Part shown: positions 31,100 to 39,402 of the stretch, piece by piece
Layout of the letters: each line of letters begins with the position of its first letter
Numbering within the stretch: position 1 is the first letter of the stretch
Origin: a virus
Lineage: Duplodnaviria; Heunggongvirae; Uroviricota; Caudoviricetes
Length of the DNA: 39,402 nt
IMG/VR virus record: IMGVR_UViG_2541047754_000004
Direction: 5' to 3' (one strand)
Translations under genes and position numbers: made by a program
The notes under the pieces: model-generated
What the model was told of the DNA's origin: nothing
Seen by the model: only the letters and a program-made list of their open reading frames with translations
Database searches by the model: none

Positions 31100-31600
31100 T
31101 CATTGAATTGGGGGCTGTTTAGATTCCTGTTCCTCTTTCAATGAACGAACTTTGCTATCATATATCCTGAGTGCATATTCGTTAATTTGCCTAGTTAAAT
31201 CGGAATCTAGCTTATAATATTTTTCAGCCCACTCAATTAAATTCTTCCTCATTATTATCTTCGGTTCAATTTTATTAATTCTATTTAAATGCATATCACG
31301 ACCGCGTTCAAAATTAAGATATGCTTGTTCACTAACGCCCTGTCCATCGATTGTGTAGGTAGTACCACTTGCACGGAAAGAGAGATGAGTCTTTTTACCA
31401 GCATATCTTTCATTATGTATAGCTTTATCGGTATTCACTATTCGAAGCCATGTCCAAAACTCATCATTAAGAATGTATTTATCAATTATTTTTAATATTA
31501 AAAAATCTCTACCTATTAGTAATAGAGGCATCAAAAAATAAACCCCAAGAAAACTCAACGCCGCTGTAATAATAGTTGAAAAAGATATTGATAACTCCAT
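31100..31600 (-). CDS. Membrane-anchored hypothetical protein (cargo gene)
   Basis: About 166 aa from ATG at 31600 (GGAG upstream); one N-terminal TM helix; AT-rich; opposite strand to flanking replication genes. Confidence 0.6.
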
Positions 31601-31621
31601 TTTACTCTCCAAAGGTTAGAC

Positions 31622-33685
31622 ATGAACAATATACTATGGGGCGACCTGGAAACCTATTGCGAAATCCCGATTACGAACGGCACCCATGCGTATGCCGAAG
31701 GCGTTGAAGTGATGCTTTTCGCATGGGCTATCAACGACGGGCCAGTAAACGTGTGGGATATCACTGCCGGAGGTGGTATTCCACACGGCTTATACGAAGC
31801 AATCGCAGACCCTGAAACCCTGCTTTATTTCCATAACTCTCACTTCGACCGCACCGTTCTGCGTTATGCAATGCCGCGACTGGCACCGCCAGTCGAACGT
31901 TGGCGCGACACGATGGTGCAGGCGCTGGCGCACGGTCTCCCGGGGGCTCTGGGGGAACTCTGCGAAGTACTAGGCGTCCCGCAAGACAAAGCGAAGGACA
32001 AAGAAGGTAAAGCGCTGATCCAGCTGTTCTGTAAGCCACGCCCGAAAAACAGCAAACTGCGTCGGGCCACCAGTAAAACCCACCCGGAAGAATGGCGGCG
32101 CTTTGTTGCTTACGCCGGACTGGATATCGAGGCAATGCGCGAAGTCTATAAACGTCTGCCGAAGTGGAATTATCAGGGGACAGAACTGGCGCTCTGGCAT
32201 CGTGATCAGCAGATCAATGACCGGGGCGTCTGCATGGACATGCAACTCGCACGCGCTGCGATCGAAGCGGTAGACCAAGAACAAAAGCGCCTGGCAAAGC
32301 GTACACAGGAAATGACTGATGGCGAAGTGCAGGCAGCCACACAACGAGACGCGTTGATTAAGCACATTGTTGAATCCTACGGTGTGGAGCTACCAGACAT
32401 GCAACGCAGTACTCTGGAACGTCGTATTGCCGACCCCGATTTACCATCTGCCGTGAAAGAACTGCTGGCTATCCGCCTGCAAGCCAGTACTACCAGCACC
32501 AGTAAATACAAGGCACTGATGAAAGGCGTAAGCCACGACGGGCGCTTACGCGGTACGCTACAGTTCTGCGGGGCGTCACGTACCGGTCGTTGGGCCGGAC
32601 GGCTATTCCAGCCCCAGAACCTTCCCCGCCCTTCACTAAAACAGGAACAAATAGACGAAGGCATCGAAGCACTGAAAGCCGGATGTGCAGACCTGCTGTT
32701 TGACAATATCATGGAACTAACCAGTTCAGCGTTACGTGGCTGCATTATCGCGCCAACAGGCAAAAAACTGGTGGTAAGTGACTTGTCAAACATTGAAGGC
32801 CGTATGCTGGCATGGCTGGCGGGAGAGGAATGGAAACTGAATGCATTCAGAGAGTACGACGCCGGAACGGGTCCGGACTTATATAAACTGGCGTATGCAA
32901 AAGCTTTCGATATTGCACCAGATGATGTTGATAAACACATGCGTCAGATCGGTAAAGTCATGGAACTCGGTCTGGGTTATGGAGGTGGTGTAGCGGCTTT
33001 CATCACTTTTGCTCTGGTTTACGGTCTCGATCTCGACGAGCTGGCGAACGCCGCACTGCCAAACATTCCCCGCGATGTTATCCGCGAGGCGAAAAGCTGG
33101 TACGACGAATCGGTTAAACGCAAGTCAACCTACGGGCTTTCTGAACGGGTATTTATCGCCTGCGACTCACTTAAACGTCTCTGGCGCAGGGCGCACCCGG
33201 CGACCTGCGATTTCTGGTACGAACTGGAGCGCACCGTCCGCACAGCAATCGCCACACCGCAAAAAACATTGTATTGCGGCTATCTTAAAATCCGACGTGA
33301 TGGCGCGTGGCTGCGCATACAGCTACCATCCGGACGCGCTGTATGCTACCCGTCTCCGGTTATCGAAAAAGGGAATATCACCTACATGGGTGTTAACTCT
33401 TATTCGCGTAAATGGCAACGACTCAAAACCTACGGCGGAAAGCTGGTGGAGAACGTCACCCAGGCAGCCGCCCGCGACGTTCTGGCCGGAAACATGCCGC
33501 TTATCGAAGATGCCGGTTACAGTATTGTGTTGACGGTACACGACGAGGTGATCACCGAAGCACCTGACACAGAAGATTTCAACGATAAAGCGCTTTCCGC
33601 GCTTCTCTCCACTAACCCCGAATGGGCACCCGATATTCCGCTGAATGCTGGCGGCTTTGAGGCGTACCACTACCGTAAGGAGTAA
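31622..33685 (+). CDS. Family-A DNA polymerase with 3'-5' exonuclease domain
   Basis: 687 aa; exo motif WGDLETY, motif [17 protein letters not shown], motif C TVHDEV. Confidence 0.9.
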
Positions 33686-33692
33686 TACAAAG

Positions 33693-34721
33693 TCACTTAA
33701 AATCCCTAGATAACATCTGCGAAGCAGCTGATGCTGTATAAACTCCAGTATGTTTTATTTCTGCAGCTATTTTGTAGCCATCCTCCTTAAACTGCGTAAG
33801 CATTGAGCTTAAGGAACCAAGTTTTTTAGTATTCAACACCATTCTAACGACAGTTCCTTCATGATAATGACCTAACTCTATATGCTTCTTTCCGTGTTCA
33901 TCTAGATATATTGCATGGTCACCGCTACAAATAAGAAAACTACCGCCAAGTTTACATATACGGCTGATCATATAAAGGCCAAATCCCGAATTATGCCAAG
34001 GATTTCTTGTATTGATTCTCGCCCCCTTAAAATTTTTACTAGAAATAGATGGCATTAACGCTAACTGAATGGCTTCAGAATCATTATCAGCTTCTATATA
34101 AGGGTTCTTCGATAGAGATTTTTTCATTCCTATACCATTATCAGAAATTGTTATTTCAACACGGTCATAAGAAGGCCAATACTGTGCACAATATTCAATC
34201 ACCTTTGAATCACTATGTTCCACAACATTACGCATAATTTCCCTAATAGAAAATGTCAAAGCATCAATGAGGTCGCCTTCTTCTTGGCGAGCAAGAATCT
34301 TTGCTAATTTACCAGATCGTTCCTCAACTATCTCTTGCACCTCAGTATATTTATCGTTAGCTTCATCTATAACTGTTTGAACACGAAGAATTGTAAATGG
34401 AACAAAATTATTATTTCCATCTGTACATCCCGGTTCACGGCCATGCTTTAACCCGAAGGCTCGAAAGAATGCCATATTTGCGGCATAATCCTTATTCTCA
34501 TGCCCGCTACAAAAAAGTTTAAAACCATCAATGTTCTTTTTCTGTTTTCGATGGAAGTCTCGAATATGCTTAGCAACATAAACCATTGTAAATGGTTCAA
34601 TCCTTCCCATATGCGAAAAATCGATTGTTATTTGCTGTTGACCTGAATGTTTTTCAATTTCATTGCAAAAATTAAATATCTTTTCAGGATTACATGAAGA
34701 GGGAAATAAGATTCGTGACAT
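33693..34721 (-). CDS. GHKL (histidine-kinase-like) ATPase domain protein with unknown N-terminal domain (cargo gene)
   Basis: 342 aa; ATG at 34721 with AAGGA upstream; motifs RNVVEHS, ITISDNGIGM, NSGFGLYMISR; AT-rich; opposite strand. Confidence 0.7.
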   Translation of the reverse strand: MSRILFPSSCNPEKIFNFCNEIEKHSGQQQITIDFSHMGRIEPFTMVYVAKHIRDFHRKQKKNIDGFKLFCSGHENKDYAANMAFFRAFGLKHGREPGCTDGNNNFVPFTILRVQTVIDEANDKYTEVQEIVEERSGKLAKILARQEEGDLIDALTFSIREIMRNVVEHSDSKVIEYCAQYWPSYDRVEITISDNGIGMKKSLSKNPYIEADNDSEAIQLALMPSISSKNFKGARINTRNPWHNSGFGLYMISRICKLGGSFLICSGDHAIYLDEHGKKHIELGHYHEGTVVRMVLNTKKLGSLSSMLTQFKEDGYKIAAEIKHTGVYTASAASQMLSRDFK

Positions 34722-34781
34722 ATTAATTCCTTATACTTGTTTTATTTGATACTACCCAATAAGTGTTAACAAGGCAAATTT

Positions 34782-35069
34782 ATGTCTTATGAACGTGAGA
34801 GCCTTATCGAAAAGCACCTCGTCGCTGAAGTGAAAAAGGCTGGCGGTGTGGCCTTTAAGTTCGTATCTCCCGGTCGCCGCTCGGTACCGGATCGCATTGT
34901 TCTGCTACCCGGCGGCCGTCTTGTTTTCGTTGAATGCAAAGCACCCGGCAAAGCACCACGCGCCGACCAGTTGCGCGAGCACGAGCGGCTGCGCGAGCTG
35001 GGCTTTACCGTGGTGGTGCTGGATAGCAAAAATCTGGAGGAAATTATTTTAAGCCGCAATAAAAGATAA
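34782..35069 (+). CDS. VRR-NUC domain nuclease
   Basis: 95 aa; PDRIVL...FVECKAP (D...ExK). Confidence 0.8.
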   Translation: MSYERESLIEKHLVAEVKKAGGVAFKFVSPGRRSVPDRIVLLPGGRLVFVECKAPGKAPRADQLREHERLRELGFTVVVLDSKNLEEIILSRNKR

Positions 35070-35081
35070 AAGACTTATGCT

Positions 35082-35879
35082 TTAATCCGTATTTTTAACA
35101 CGTGTTTCGAAACACTCTTTTAATTTAGCTATTTCCTTTTTAGAGGACATGACTGTGAATTTCATCCCTTTTAAATCATTAACAAATTCAAATTTTGCGC
35201 TATTGGACTCACAATCACCAACAACAAAACCACTACCAAATGAATTGAGCAACACTTTAGTATTACTACCATCTACCATATAATATTCGTTATTTTTAAA
35301 TGCAGTAACCTTCCCGAAGGTATAGCTCAATATCAATAATGTCATCACCCCTAAAGGAAAAGCTGATTTTAGGATTTTTAAATCGATATAATAAAATACG
35401 TCTTTATACTCTGCAAGCCTCCCAAATTTTCTAATGCTATCCATATGATGTTCGTGTCTCTTACTATGGATTGACGCGGACACCGCATTGTGGTAATTCA
35501 ACAAAAGCAGAGCAAATAATAAAATATCTCCAACACTCATCACAGAGGTTTCGGAGAAATAACCAAAAGGCCAATGGAATCCTATTATGTAAAAATTAGG
35601 TATTAGCATAACCACTATAAATATAATAAATGGAACATAATATTTCCCTTTCAAATCAAACATCAATGTCGCGTATAAGGCACCGAGAAATAAAAAACTA
35701 AAAAACAAAAGCCATACAGCCGAATACAATAGCGTATTTAAATCTATTTTAATAAAAAGGGCTGGATAGCCATAATACGATGCAACACCTTTCTGAAAAG
35801 AATATGCCATCGCATAAGCTAACGCTGAAAAAACAGTTAATAAAGAAACTTGTTTTGTAAGTATTTTTGCCAGGGGCAT
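35082..35879 (-). CDS. Polytopic membrane protein with soluble C-terminal domain (cargo gene)
   Basis: 265 aa; ATG at 35879 with GGAGG upstream; several hydrophobic helices in first about 150 aa; AT-rich; opposite strand. Confidence 0.65.
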   Translation of the reverse strand: MPLAKILTKQVSLLTVFSALAYAMAYSFQKGVASYYGYPALFIKIDLNTLLYSAVWLLFFSFLFLGALYATLMFDLKGKYYVPFIIFIVVMLIPNFYIIGFHWPFGYFSETSVMSVGDILLFALLLLNYHNAVSASIHSKRHEHHMDSIRKFGRLAEYKDVFYYIDLKILKSAFPLGVMTLLILSYTFGKVTAFKNNEYYMVDGSNTKVLLNSFGSGFVVGDCESNSAKFEFVNDLKGMKFTVMSSKKEIAKLKECFETRVKNTD

Positions 35880-35941
35880 ACCCGCCTCCGTTAGTTATAT
35901 ATAGAGAGAGAATTGACACATATTCTACCATAGGTATATTA

Positions 35942-37336
35942 ATGAATAACATATTCCACCCCCGACTTTATCAAAACCTCATAATCAATCACCAAACCGA
36001 CATTCTGCGCGGCAACATCTGGGCAGGGATGGGGATGGGTAAAACCGTAGCGACACTCACCACGCTGGAAGATCTTTTCATGGCTGGAGCAGAAACACAC
36101 CCCGCGCTGGTCCTCGCGCCGCTACGCGTTGCAGCAAGCACCTGGCCTGATGAAGCTGTTAAATGGGGGCATCTGCGTAATATTGAGGTACAGCCGATCA
36201 TCGGTAACGCCAAAGCGCGCTCTACGGCGCTGGCGAACAGCAACGCGAGCGTGTTCACCATCAACTACGATAACCTTGTCTGGCTGGTTGAAGAATTGGG
36301 AGAACGATGGCCGTTCGGAACTGTCATTCCAGATGAAAGCACCCGGCTAAAATCCTTCCGGCTGCGAGGTGGTGGTAAGCGCGCGGCGGCGCTGGGCAAA
36401 GTGGCGCATAAGTATGTCCGGCGCTGGATAAATCTCACCGGTACGCCAGCACCGAACGGCCTGGTAGATTTGTGGGGACAATCGTGGTTTGTGGACCAAG
36501 GGCAACGTCTCGGGCGCACTTACGGCGCGTTTACCTCACGCTGGTTCAACTCGATACAGTTTCCGGGACAGAGCTGGACTAAACTGGAACCTTTTGCTCA
36601 CTCACAGGGTGAAATACAGCGAGCATTAGCCGATGTGACCCTCTCGCTGGATGCGGCCGACTGGTTCGATATCAAAGACCCCATCCATAACGTAATCCGC
36701 GTGGATATGCCCCCGAAGGCCCGTCAGCAGTATCGTGAAATGGAAAAGGAAATGTTCCTCGAGCTGAATAGCGAAGGCATCGAAGCACCGAACGCCGCGG
36801 CAAAGACACTGAAGTGTCTTCAAATCGCTAGTGGCGCAGTATACACAGACGACACCGGAAGTTGGTCAGAACTGCATGACACCAAACTACAGGCGCTGGA
36901 CAGCATACTGACCGAAGCAGCTGGCGCACCTGTGCTGGTTGCTTATCACTGGAAACACGATCTTGAACGCTTGCTTAAAGCATTCCCTCGCGGTCGTCAC
37001 CTCGACCAGGATCCACAGACACTGCGCGACTGGAATTCCGGAAAGATTCCTGTTCTCTTTGCACACCCAGCCAGCGCGGGCCACGGCCTGAACATGCAGG
37101 ACGGCGGAAATATACTGGTATTTTTCTCACACTGGTGGGACCTGGAGCAATATCAGCAAATTATTGAACGTATCGGCCCCACCAGGCAGATACAGGCCGG
37201 ACACAATCGTCCGGTATTTATTCACCACATTATTGCTGCCGACACTATGGACGAAATGGTGATGGAGCGGCGCAACTCAAAACGAACAGTGCAGGACATC
37301 CTGCTCGATGCCATGAAAAAGAGAGGTATAGCATGA
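35942..37336 (+). CDS. SNF2/DEAD-like superfamily-2 helicase
   Basis: About 464 aa from ATG at 35942; GMGMGKT (motif I), VIPDES (II), LTGTP (III), AGHGLN (VI); start uncertain (ORF track gives TTG at 35867). Confidence 0.82.
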   Translation: MNNIFHPRLYQNLIINHQTDILRGNIWAGMGMGKTVATLTTLEDLFMAGAETHPALVLAPLRVAASTWPDEAVKWGHLRNIEVQPIIGNAKARSTALANSNASVFTINYDNLVWLVEELGERWPFGTVIPDESTRLKSFRLRGGGKRAAALGKVAHKYVRRWINLTGTPAPNGLVDLWGQSWFVDQGQRLGRTYGAFTSRWFNSIQFPGQSWTKLEPFAHSQGEIQRALADVTLSLDAADWFDIKDPIHNVIRVDMPPKARQQYREMEKEMFLELNSEGIEAPNAAAKTLKCLQIASGAVYTDDTGSWSELHDTKLQALDSILTEAAGAPVLVAYHWKHDLERLLKAFPRGRHLDQDPQTLRDWNSGKIPVLFAHPASAGHGLNMQDGGNILVFFSHWWDLEQYQQIIERIGPTRQIQAGHNRPVFIHHIIAADTMDEMVMERRNSKRTVQDILLDAMKKRGIA

Positions 37337-37533
37337 GCGAGAAACCCGACGATTTACTCACCCCGGATGAAGTATGCCAAAAGTTAGGTATTACACAGAA
37401 AACGCTATGTGAGTGGAATATTAAGCATCGTCATCGGGCTATCCTGGCACCAATTCGTTTCAGTGCAAAAGTAGTTCGTTATGAGCGCCGAAATGTCGAC
37501 GCTTTTATTCAAAAATGTCGCAGCCAGTATTAA
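37333..37533 (+). CDS. AlpA/Xis-like small DNA-binding protein (putative excisionase)
   Basis: 66 aa; LTPDEVCQKLGITQKTLCEW HTH; ATGA coupled to helicase; adjacent to integrase. Confidence 0.7.
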   Translation: MSEKPDDLLTPDEVCQKLGITQKTLCEWNIKHRHRAILAPIRFSAKVVRYERRNVDAFIQKCRSQY

Positions 37534-38933
37534 CCTCGCCGCCGTAGCAATGCCACCTGCGCAAGTATGCTCCGCTCGTGAGCCTCGAAAGCTTCGCGCT
37601 TTAACGCAATCTCTTCCTGCAAAATCTCATCAGAAAAGTCGTAATGTTCTGCCATCGGGTCATCTGACTTGCTGGAGTGGTGAAGGCAAAGGAGGCTGAT
37701 TTCCCTTCGGTCTGATCGGGAATAGCCTCTTTCCTTCATCAAGGCAATAACATTGCTCTTAAGGAATTTACGGCACATCGTATTAAATGCACCGTCTTTC
37801 CCTTTAACAGTCCCATCATGTTTTATTCCTTTTACAGCCCCATCCGGGCTGTATGTTTTCACTAGCTTATCCAGTGATCGTTTTGAAAATGGCTGCATTG
37901 GATCACGCGGCTGCAAAAATACATAATCCCTGTTGCACTCAGGAACTGAATCACGCCAGGCTTTCTGCTCGTCGATAATCCGCCGGATCTCAGGCGTTAT
38001 CGGCAGGCGGAAAGCCTTTTGTGTTTTCATAGCCCCTCGCATGCCGATAACCCCTTCCGGATAAACAATTTCACCAGCCTCCTCGTGAACGTAGTCCCAG
38101 CGCAGGTTATGGACATTAATCGGACGAACACCAGTGATGATCATGAAGCGAACAGCATTCTTCTGGTGTACAGAGGTGCAGGCAGCAACATTGAGCCAGA
38201 GTCGGGCGATTGATTCAATATCGGTAAAAAGCCGTGTGGGGGTAGGTTTCTGTACGCGGGAGGAAACATAATCATCTGGCAGACTGGCGGCAACATTGCG
38301 GCCGTTGCAAAGAGTAGGTGCGCAGAACTTCCAGAACCGACGGAGCTCGGCAAACAACTCCAGGGCGTTATTGTTCGAGCGAGTGGCGATCCACTCGTCC
38401 AGCACTTCCACCAGCCGACTGTATGTTACGTCGCTGAACACCTCGCGCTCGCCGAACGTTGATTTAATCCGGTCGATACGCACCCCGTAGGTTGTGAAAC
38501 TGTCCGGGCTCAGCTTCTGACGGGCTACTTTGGCTTTGAGGTCATCCCGGTACATTTCCAGCGCTGCATGTACGGACTCTGCCCGCAGTCCACCGTCAGC
38601 CATACCTAGTGCTTTTTCGCGCGCCAGCTGGATAGCGAGCTCCGGCCACTCGCCGAGCTTTTTACCTTTGAGGCCCATCTTTTTTGGAAACTCGGCGTAA
38701 AATGTAACCTTACCGGCTTTGCTGAAATCGATACGGAGATAGTTCTCTTTTTCGTATTTGGAACGGCGAGCCACGCCGGAAGCAGCGAGGATGATTTTGG
38801 CGGCAGCAACACAGATTTTCATGTGTGCGCTGGTATAGGGGGGTTTACAGGCATCCCATTTTTCAGAAGCGGCTAAAACATCGTCATTATTGGGGCTATC
38901 CGGATTATGTGTTACAGTGCGCGGCATTCTCAA
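37530..38933 (-). CDS. Tyrosine integrase (phage integrase family)
   Basis: 467 aa; AAGGA upstream of ATG at 38933; C-terminal catalytic region with R...H..R...Y-type spacing; last phage gene before chromosomal yfhL. Confidence 0.85.
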   Translation of the reverse strand: MRMPRTVTHNPDSPNNDDVLAASEKWDACKPPYTSAHMKICVAAAKIILAASGVARRSKYEKENYLRIDFSKAGKVTFYAEFPKKMGLKGKKLGEWPELAIQLAREKALGMADGGLRAESVHAALEMYRDDLKAKVARQKLSPDSFTTYGVRIDRIKSTFGEREVFSDVTYSRLVEVLDEWIATRSNNNALELFAELRRFWKFCAPTLCNGRNVAASLPDDYVSSRVQKPTPTRLFTDIESIARLWLNVAACTSVHQKNAVRFMIITGVRPINVHNLRWDYVHEEAGEIVYPEGVIGMRGAMKTQKAFRLPITPEIRRIIDEQKAWRDSVPECNRDYVFLQPRDPMQPFSKRSLDKLVKTYSPDGAVKGIKHDGTVKGKDGAFNTMCRKFLKSNVIALMKERGYSRSDRREISLLCLHHSSKSDDPMAEHYDFSDEILQEEIALKREAFEAHERSILAQVALLRRRG

Positions 38934-39132
38934 TCCTTATCTGCGTAGGCGCAGAAAACAAGCTCACACATACAAGTCTTTTCTACGGGACAAAATGCAA
39001 TGTGTTGCGGTTTTGTGTTGCTGGACTGAGTTTATCAAGGTTAAATACACTGGATCAACATACAGTAAGTTAATGACAGTCAAGCATACAAACTCGATAC
39101 AACTTACTGATTTTAAAATGATTTAACGGTAA

Positions 39133-39402
<270 letters not shown>

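What the first reader, a model, noticed from the sequence alone, without database searches (positions are those of the whole stretch)
35082..35879. AT-rich reverse-strand polytopic membrane protein between VRR-NUC and helicase genes
A 265-aa ORF with a strong GGAGG RBS has several predicted transmembrane helices followed by a charged soluble C-terminal domain. It is antisense to the operon in which it is embedded and AT-rich. This layout is typical of prophage-encoded abortive-infection or superinfection-exclusion membrane proteins, but no family is recognisable from sequence alone.
Basis: partly seen in the sequence, partly recalled or inferred. Interest (0 to 1): 0.6.

Follow-up and report, generated by a model that had tools for sequence, protein, structure and literature searches.

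The report
Solitary prophage membrane-protein cargo gene
This is a real, AT-rich, single-gene cassette dropped backwards into the replication genes of an E. coli prophage; it encodes an uncharacterised five-helix inner-membrane protein whose conserved parts face the periplasm, and it sits in a slot that related prophages fill with known anti-phage genes, so it is a reasonable but untested candidate for a new phage-exclusion protein.

Summary
The 265-aa reverse-strand ORF (35082-35879) is real: GGAGG RBS, 32.7% GC against ~54% in its neighbours, dN/dS 0.12-0.28 between alleles. It is the only gene in a ~900-bp cassette between the VRR-NUC and SNF2-helicase genes of a SEN34-like temperate myovirus prophage integrated next to yfhL. 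The backbone occurs in ~160 of 5,426 complete E. coli genomes; the gene is in 17. Relatives fill the same slot with BstA (PADLOC E 1e-115), DUF6338, a Dcm methylase, Arc/Rha genes or small ORFs. The protein belongs to a sparse family (75 clusters among 1.84 billion representatives), all annotated hypothetical, and some members are tagged Pfam PF27470 'TfpB'. Family members are solitary, ~33% GC and mostly antisense in at least four different prophage or island contexts. A confident AF2 model (pLDDT 86) shows five TM helices plus a ~70-residue beta domain. The positive-inside rule (35/35 sequences) and a co-varying Cys pair place the N-terminus inside and the conserved loop 1 and C-terminal domain in the periplasm. 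No known fold, defence family, transporter or P22 SieA matches. Best reading (confidence 0.4): a lysogen-expressed envelope-level superinfection-exclusion protein. Function is untested.

The parts
35082..35879 (-). CDS, 265 aa; five-TM inner-membrane protein of the PF27470 ('TfpB')-tagged family
   Evidence: ORF; homologues; dN/dS 0.12-0.28; AF2 model pLDDT 85.9, pTM 0.82
35885..35889 (-). GGAGG ribosome-binding site, 5-nt spacer to the ATG
   Evidence: read directly from the sequence
35922..35930 (-). TGgTAGAAT, an extended -10-like element ~43 nt upstream of the ATG; candidate own promoter inside the cassette (inferred, not validated)
   Evidence: read. The consensus scan did not list it because the -35 hexamer is poor
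35049..35942 (.). Variable cassette ('slot 2') bounded by conserved VRR-NUC and helicase sequence; contains only this gene
   Evidence: blastn against prophages with other cargo: homology ends at 35030-35048 and resumes at 35943-35969
35736..35816 (-). Residues 22-48: end of TM1 plus periplasmic loop 1, carrying the family signature Y-x3-Y-x-F-Q-x-G-x3-Y-Y-G-Y-P-x2-F-I-x-I-D-L-N; the most conserved segment
   Evidence: alignments A2/A3; loop 1 has the highest conservation, 0.60
35370..35489 (-). Residues 131-170: K/R/H-rich loop between TM4 and TM5, predicted cytoplasmic; absent from most relatives
35085..35309 (-). Residues 191-265: small beta-rich (five strands plus a helix) C-terminal domain, predicted periplasmic. 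C223 (35211-35213) and C256 (35112-35114) are the only cysteines
   Evidence: AF2 secondary structure; Cys pair both/none/one = 35/31/2; weak SH3-like Foldseek hits

Best explanation
The gene is a self-contained, horizontally mobile 'moron' cassette. It carries its own RBS and probably its own promoter, and sits antisense in the replication module of a SEN34-like temperate myovirus prophage. The product is an inner-membrane protein with five TM helices, N-terminus in and C-terminus out. Its conserved surfaces both face the periplasm: the aromatic loop-1 motif after TM1, and a ~70-residue, probably disulfide-bonded, SH3-like beta domain. Most relatives have almost nothing on the cytoplasmic side. 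It occupies a slot that sister prophages use for anti-phage genes. I therefore propose that it is expressed in the lysogen and protects it at the envelope, as a superinfection-exclusion protein. It would interfere, at the periplasmic face of the inner membrane, with the genome-delivery apparatus of incoming phages or with an inner-membrane host factor they need.

Shown: gene reality, cassette nature, patchy distribution, hotspot context and a confident predicted fold.
Strongly inferred: topology.
Inferred only: expression in the lysogen, any anti-phage phenotype, and the target.
For: Variable cargo. The gene is in 17 genomes against ~160 with the backbone. The cassette boundaries are sharp.

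Defence hotspot. The same slot holds BstA, DUF6338, a Dcm methylase, Arc/Rha genes or other small ORFs. The neighbouring slot holds TIR/PDC-S35 or a GHKL ATPase.

Mobile and solitary. Family members occur in the same slot of a Raoultella prophage integrated at another chromosomal site, in a lambdoid Enterobacter prophage, in a Pantoea prophage next to int and methylases, in a remnant beside tRNA-Gly/Cys/Leu, and in an Izhakiella island with IS, toxin-antitoxin and integrase fragments. No partner gene is conserved. GC is ~0.33 everywhere, 10-24 points below the flanks.

Topology. K/R counts are 7.4 on the predicted inside and 1.6 outside, with inside greater in 35 of 35 sequences. The two cysteines co-occur in 35, are both absent in 31 and occur singly in 2. 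The cytoplasmic loop 131-170 is missing in most relatives. Conservation peaks at TM1 and loop 1 and in the C-terminal domain.

Precedent. [quoted passage not shown]
Against: There is no experimental or homology link to any protein of known function. PADLOC, PHROGs, Pfam and NCBIfam give nothing informative. The profile is unrelated to SieA. No family member is found in 50,697 sequenced phage records. In Serratia the gene is a chromosomal islet after proBA with no phage genes nearby, and a distant member lies in a non-phage contig, so the family is not strictly phage-borne. Hotspots also carry non-defence cargo (regulators, methylases). DNA of 33% GC is typically H-NS-silenced in E. coli (general knowledge), so expression in the lysogen is not assured. 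The Pfam label 'TfpB' hints at a different, pilus-related ancestry that I could not test.
Confidence: 0.4

Rival explanations
1. Abortive-infection effector. The protein sits inertly in the inner membrane and, when triggered by infection, oligomerises or opens to depolarise the membrane, killing the cell before phage release.
For: The best-characterised alternative occupant of the same slot, BstA, is an abortive-infection protein (function from the literature). Polytopic membrane proteins are common Abi or effector modules (general knowledge). The gene is solitary, so it would be a single-gene system.
Against: Most relatives have essentially no cytoplasmic domain with which to sense intracellular phage cues. 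Cytoplasmic loops are the least conserved (0.19-0.26), and the 131-170 loop is absent from most members. The conserved parts are periplasmic. No partner sensor gene is conserved. No PADLOC hit.
Confidence: 0.2
2. Non-defence envelope function carried as lysogenic-conversion or accessory cargo. Examples: orphan immunity to a membrane-targeting bacteriocin or contact-dependent toxin, or a chaperone/adapter for membrane-anchored proteins, analogous to pilin accessory proteins (as the Pfam name TfpB suggests).
For: Homologues are tagged PF27470 'TfpB'. TfpY-like pilin accessory proteins share the outline of N-in, an odd number of TM helices and a periplasmic globular C-terminus (PMC11841053). In Serratia the gene is a chromosomal islet at the same site (after proBA) in contigs carrying two ~90%-identical proteins named for different Serratia species. 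Distant members are in non-phage contexts and in Bacillus.
Against: No pilin, secretion, toxin or bacteriocin gene is adjacent in any of ~10 contexts examined. TfpY-like proteins have 3 TM helices and a larger, differently built periplasmic domain, against 5 TM helices plus ~70 residues here. All named members are 'hypothetical', and none is from a pilus locus or from Moraxella. The target's own cluster has no PF27470 hit.
Confidence: 0.2
3. A function in the phage's own lytic cycle, for example a holin/antiholin-like protein, a membrane anchor for replication, or an injection helper.
For: It is embedded in the replication module, and multi-TM proteins do serve in lysis (general knowledge).
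Against: It is present in only ~11% of otherwise ≥95%-identical backbones. It is absent from the isolated, inducible relatives vB_EcoM-606R2, 611R5 and 689R2. It is antisense to the module and compositionally foreign. It remains intact in a prophage remnant that lacks the helicase and polymerase genes.
Confidence: 0.05

Closest known systems
Pfam PF27470 'TfpB' (uncharacterised membrane-protein family; I believe, from memory and unverified, that the name comes from the tfpB ORF of the Moraxella pilin-inversion region)
   Same: Homologues at 57-87% identity (P0002, P0005, P0006, P0007) and the Serratia members (P0009, P0124, P0125) carry precomputed hits to this model. Length and architecture are uniform across the 75 clusters found.
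   Different: The cluster representative that matches the window protein at the rounded 100% (P0001; the two sequences differ at residue 39, P vs S) and P0004 have no recorded hit, and several hits are only 'weak'. The model is absent from the local Pfam copy, so I could not score the target. No function is attached to the family.
P22 SieA superinfection-exclusion protein
   Same: Solitary, prophage-expressed, polytopic inner-membrane protein with no signal peptide, encoded antisense to its neighbours with its own promoter. It blocks DNA delivery at the inner membrane (PMC10883804). This is the mechanism I propose by analogy.
   Different: SieA is 162-164 aa with 3 predicted TM helices and no C-terminal beta domain. 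There is no detectable sequence relationship (hhalign probability 0.7%).
TfpY/TfpX/TfpZ/FimB-like pilin accessory proteins
   Same: Short cytoplasmic N-terminus, an odd number of TM helices, a periplasmic C-terminal globular domain, ~235-245 aa, and no recognisable domains by HHpred (PMC11841053).
   Different: They have three TM helices and a two-part beta/alpha periplasmic domain of ~140 residues, against five TM helices plus ~70 residues here. They are always next to a major pilin gene, and none is near any family member examined. They gave no phage defence in the cited study (abstract).
BstA (prophage abortive-infection protein)
   Same: Occupies exactly the same cassette slot, in the same reverse orientation, as a single gene in sister prophages.
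   Different: BstA is a soluble HTH-containing protein (second PADLOC hit to an HTH model) and is unrelated in sequence; the target has no PADLOC hit.

Membership tests
Pfam PF27470 (TfpB) | Score above the family's gathering threshold against the Pfam HMM | tested here: inconclusive
   The model is not in the local Pfam copy (one search returns nothing for the homologues that carry the precomputed tag). The precomputed table gives no hit for the cluster representative that matches the window protein at the rounded 100% (P0001; one residue differs, P39S), gives hits for P0002, P0003, P0005, P0006, P0007 and P0009, and several of these are marked weak.
Pfam PF27470 (TfpB) | Homology to proteins that do carry the tag | tested here: met
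   phmmer E 1e-150 to 1e-94 to tagged proteins. The profile search links the target to Serratia P0009 (tagged) at E 1e-33.
P22 SieA-type superinfection exclusion proteins | Sequence or profile similarity to SieA types A-C | tested here: not met
   hhalign of the family profile against P22 SieA: probability 0.7%, E 0.084 over 23 columns. The only PHROG hits are two weak matches to families of unknown function.
P22 SieA-type superinfection exclusion proteins | ~160-aa protein with three TM helices | tested here: not met
   265 aa and five TM helices, against 162-164 aa and three TM helices.
P22 SieA-type superinfection exclusion proteins | Blocks DNA injection by superinfecting phage | not testable with these tools
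   Needs plaque and DNA-entry assays.
TfpY-like (FimB-like) pilin accessory proteins | Encoded immediately downstream of a major type IV pilin gene | tested here: not met
   No pilin gene in the window or in any of the related contexts.
TfpY-like (FimB-like) pilin accessory proteins | Three N-terminal TM helices plus a beta2-alpha-beta3 sheet and a second three-stranded sheet | tested here: not met
   The AF2 model has five TM helices and one small five-strand domain plus a helix, against the description in PMC11841053.
TfpY-like (FimB-like) pilin accessory proteins | Sequence similarity to TfpX/Y/Z | not tested
Known anti-phage defence systems (PADLOC-DB 2.0.0) | HMM match to any defence-system protein | tested here: not met
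   0 families at E<=1.
DUF6338 (alternative membrane cargo of the same slot) | Profile similarity | tested here: not met
   hhalign probability 0.1%. Pfam DUF6338 hits the L004 protein (E 1e-35) but not the target.
Housekeeping transporters / permeases | Pfam/NCBIfam family match, or fold match to a solved transporter | tested here: not met

The most novel reading that the evidence does not exclude
This sparse, AT-rich, solitary gene family (tagged PF27470) is a new class of single-gene, envelope-acting anti-phage protein. It hops between unrelated prophages and islands of Enterobacterales, and uses a periplasmic aromatic loop plus a disulfide-bonded SH3-like domain to block phage genome delivery across the inner membrane. 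It would be mechanistically analogous to SieA, Imm or HK97 gp15 but structurally unrelated to all of them.
Probability: 0.3. Interest if true: 0.6.

Novelty: new member of a known kind. Interest (0 to 1): 0.45.

Why it matters
Inner-membrane superinfection-exclusion proteins are few, small, fast-evolving and mostly missed by defence-finding pipelines; this one escapes PADLOC, PHROG annotation and the local Pfam. If this family does block phage entry, it would add a structurally new exclusion module with a confident predicted fold. It would also provide a defined prophage hotspot (VRR-NUC/helicase and polA/VRR-NUC gaps in SEN34-like prophages) for mining further cargo. It would be relevant to phage-therapy host range in clinical E. 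coli, Enterobacter, Raoultella and Serratia. If it has no such function, it remains an ordinary uncharacterised moron.

Tried and rejected
- **Family libraries on the target.** Pfam, NCBIfam and PADLOC gave no hit. PHROGs gave only two weak hits to families of unknown function.
- **tblastn against 50,697 phage records.** The target and four divergent family members all gave no match.
- **Word-indexed homologue searches with alignments.** Both were saturated by TM low-complexity words and returned few proteins.
- **The search for related loci with alignments A3 and A4.** I replaced it with a hand-made degenerate DNA motif. That found one true locus (Izhakiella) among 5 hits in 185,579 species genomes; the other four failed my HMM check. 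In viral contigs it found only the same 7 prophage contigs as before.
- **First AF2 run with 7 sequences.** Unusable (pLDDT 50). Rerun with 35 sequences it gave pLDDT 86.
- **Two-gene system with the adjacent GHKL ATPase.** Rejected. The 94% allele and the Raoultella copy pair with a TIR gene instead. The neighbour in the Enterobacter prophage is an unrelated coiled-coil protein.
- **Relationship to SieA or DUF6338.** Rejected.
- **Moraxella origin of the Pfam name.** Could not be confirmed. No accessible paper and no Moraxella protein among the 30 clusters looked up.
- **Literature search by RefSeq accession.** Nothing found.
- **tRNA next to the Serratia islet.** None found.

Full report
**1.
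- A 265-codon ORF runs from 35879 to 35082 on the minus strand. GGAGG lies five bases before its ATG.
- Its GC content is 0.327, against 0.54 for the flanking VRR-NUC, SNF2-helicase and family-A polymerase genes (profile). All of those genes are on the plus strand.
- In DNA this AT-rich, about 7.5% of random codons are stops, so an open frame this long has a chance probability near 1e-9 (my arithmetic).
- Pairwise dN/dS between alleles is 0.12-0.28. It is a real gene under purifying selection.
- The long TTG-initiated 'helicase' ORF that overlaps the target's start (35867) is an ORF-finder artefact. RefSeq annotations of identical prophages start the helicase at a position equivalent to ATG 35942.

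**2. What surrounds it.**
- The window is a temperate myovirus prophage. Its structural half is 97.5% identical to the induced E. coli phages vB_EcoM-611R5 and 606R2, and ~82% identical to Salmonella phage SEN34.
- It has a CI-like repressor, a VapE-like primase, DUF2800/PD-(D/E)XK, an Enc34-type ssDNA-binding protein, polA, VRR-NUC, an SNF2 helicase, an HTH protein and a tyrosine integrase next to yfhL.
- Comparison with sister prophages shows two sharply bounded variable cassettes in the replication module.
- Slot 1 (about 33690-34781) holds a reverse-strand GHKL ATPase here.
- Slot 2 (about 35049-35942) holds only the target.
- A TGgTAGAAT extended -10-like element at 35930-35922 (-) lies inside slot 2 (read). 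The cassette therefore plausibly brings its own promoter. This is inferred.

**3. It is variable cargo in a defence hotspot.**
- The helicase backbone is present at ≥95% identity in ~160 of 5,426 complete E. coli genomes.
- The target is in 17 of them, as two alleles of ~99.5% and ~94% identity, and never on plasmids.
- In other prophages of this family, slot 2 contains one of the following:
  - a BstA gene, confirmed by PADLOC at E 1.4e-115;
  - a DUF6338 membrane protein plus a 47-aa ORF;
  - a Dcm methyltransferase plus a 106-aa ORF;
  - an Arc/Arc/Rha module;
  - a 108-aa ORF;
  - two small plus-strand genes in the isolated phage vB_EcoM-606R2, one with weak TIR similarity;
  - a frameshifted, divergent member of the target's own family in STEC strains.
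- Slot 1 alternates between the GHKL ATPase, a TIR protein matching PADLOC candidate system PDC-S35 (E 7e-109), ANR/DUF4406, methyltransferases and YfbU.
- The target is not tied to the ATPase. The 94% allele and the Raoultella orthologue pair with TIR instead.

**4. The family.**
- An exhaustive profile search of 1.84 billion representative proteins found only 75 clusters at E≤1e-3. All are 186-335 aa.
- Every named member is a 'hypothetical protein'. The closer clade is confined to Enterobacterales: Enterobacter, Raoultella, Serratia, Yersinia, Pantoea and Izhakiella. A distant clade includes Bacillus cereus/toyonensis and metagenomic sequences.
- Several homologues carry a precomputed hit to Pfam PF27470, named 'TfpB'. 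That model is not in the local Pfam copy, and the target's own cluster has no recorded hit.
- I suspect from memory that the name derives from the tfpB ORF of the Moraxella pilin-inversion region. I could not verify this.

**5. Family members behave as a solitary mobile gene.**
- **Raoultella:** same slot of the same prophage type, integrated next to sbcB.
- **Enterobacter hormaechei:** between the lambda-P-like gene and dinI/rusA of a lambdoid prophage, antisense.
- **Pantoea:** antisense, between int/xis/two methylases and the early genes of a different prophage.
- **Prophage remnant (P0007):** the gene is intact in what appears to be a degraded prophage abutting tRNA-Gly/Cys/Leu. An integrase-like fragment and a VRR-NUC-sized ORF remain, but no helicase or polymerase gene is present.
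- **Izhakiella:** in an island with an IS3 fragment, a toxin-antitoxin pair and an integrase fragment.
- **Serratia:** a lone islet after proBA.
- No neighbour is conserved across these contexts.
- In all ten contexts the gene is 0.33-0.35 GC, 10-24 points below its flanks.

**6. Structure and topology.**
- With a 35-sequence alignment, AlphaFold2 gives a confident model (pLDDT 85.9, pTM 0.82). It has helices at 13-36, 47-76, 81-99, 116-152 and 167-195, then five short strands (200-243) and a helix (247-258).
- Across 35 family members, the N-terminus, loop 2 and loop 4 carry 7.4 K/R on average, against 1.6 for loops 1 and 3. The inside count exceeds the outside count in 35 of 35 sequences. 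This predicts N-in, C-out.
- The only two cysteines of the target, C223 and C256, lie in the C-terminal domain. Across 68 family members they are both present in 35, both absent in 31 and singly present in 2. This is the pattern of a structural disulfide, which in Enterobacterales implies a periplasmic location (inference).
- Conservation is highest in periplasmic loop 1 (0.60; signature Y..Y.FQ.G...YYGYP..FI.IDLN) and TM1 (0.49), then the C-terminal domain (0.37).
- Conservation is lowest in the cytoplasmic loops (0.19-0.26). The charged 131-170 loop is absent from most relatives.
- The functional surfaces therefore face the periplasm and the membrane, not the cytoplasm.

**7. No known relative.**
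- No Pfam, NCBIfam or PADLOC hit, and only two weak PHROG hits to families of unknown function.
- No PDB sequence relative.
- Foldseek against the PDB and against viral models finds nothing at E<0.09. The weak top hits are HIV integrase chains, with NdhS lower down, which hints at an SH3-like barrel for the C-terminal domain.
- The family profile is unrelated to P22 SieA and to DUF6338.
- TfpY-like pilin accessory proteins share only the general outline and are always next to pilin genes. That is not the case here.

**8. Interpretation.**
- The combination points to an envelope-acting accessory protein: a defence hotspot, solitary mobile AT-rich cargo, and a polytopic inner-membrane protein whose conserved parts are periplasmic with almost no cytoplasmic mass.
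- The best-precedented role for such a prophage gene is superinfection exclusion at the inner membrane, as shown for P22 SieA (PMC10883804).
- I give this 0.4.
- Abortive infection by membrane disruption gets 0.2. It is less favoured because there is no cytoplasmic sensing surface and no partner gene.
- A non-defence envelope role (orphan immunity, or a pilin-accessory-like chaperone) gets 0.2.
- A role in the phage's own lytic cycle gets 0.05.
- The remainder is unassigned.
- None of these is tested. The gene's AT-richness also raises the possibility of H-NS silencing.

**9. Verdict.**
- It needs two corrections. A family, though uncharacterised, does exist. The topology argues for periplasm-facing exclusion rather than classical abortive infection.
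- It is a good, inexpensive candidate for a plaque-assay screen, but one of many such prophage morons. Interest is 0.45.

Noticed in passing
window 33693-34721 (-), cassette ~33690-34781: A second AT-rich (36% GC) reverse-strand single-gene cassette between polA and VRR-NUC. It encodes a 342-aa GHKL/HATPase_c protein (Pfam E 1e-7). It matches phrog_3364 (unknown function, E 2.5e-33) and weakly matches the N-terminal region of the DISARM protein DrmA in PADLOC (E 3e-8). Sister prophages carry a TIR protein (PADLOC PDC-S35) in this slot, so this is a candidate defence gene in its own right.
   Followed up: partly
L003 2791-3487 (-) (E. coli 97-3250; same slot as the target): The annotated 195-aa 'hypothetical protein' is a frameshifted, divergent member of the same family (46% identical to P0043). 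The rest of the C-terminal domain, including the second conserved Cys (…KVCFL…), continues in another frame. The family member is therefore decaying in these STEC prophages.
   Followed up: yes
window 35913-35940 (+): The best sigma-70-like match in the region (TTGACA-16-TATATT, 11/12) lies on the plus strand. It ends 2 nt before the helicase ATG (35942), so a transcript from it would start inside the helicase ORF. It overlaps, face to face, the putative promoter of the target. It may be chance in AT-rich DNA, or a sign of transcriptional interference between the cassette and the helicase.
   Followed up: no
window 35867-35941 (+): The 489-aa TTG-initiated version of the helicase ORF overlaps the target's start codon. 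RefSeq annotations of near-identical prophages use the ATG equivalent to 35942 (464-465 aa), so the overlap is an ORF-calling artefact.
   Followed up: yes
window 31100-31612 (-): Another reverse-strand ORF (170 aa, no Pfam hit) in a low-GC patch (0.38 at 31201-31800), between the Enc34-type ssDNA-binding protein gene and polA. Possibly a third cargo slot; the Raoultella relative has a 164-aa ORF in the same position.
   Followed up: partly
L004 4460-5223 (-) (E. coli 23CRST009, slot 2) and upstream SIR2 gene at L004 1-934: This sister prophage carries a DUF6338 membrane protein plus a 47-aa ORF in slot 2, TIR in slot 1, and a SIR2-family gene just upstream of polA. That is three candidate defence cargos in one replication module.
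   Followed up: no
L043/L048 8001-8786 (Serratia): In Serratia the family member is a lone 33%-GC islet between proA and a cytochrome b561-like gene, in contigs carrying two ~90%-identical proteins. No phage genes and no tRNA lie nearby. The GC contrast is the largest seen (-0.24).
   Followed up: partly
window 37530-39402: The prophage integrase abuts yfhL (a 4Fe-4S ferredoxin), with shoB and acpS beyond it in identical genomes. No tRNA gene is present in the window, so integration is at a non-tRNA site near yfhL. The Raoultella relative uses a site next to sbcB instead.
   Followed up: partly
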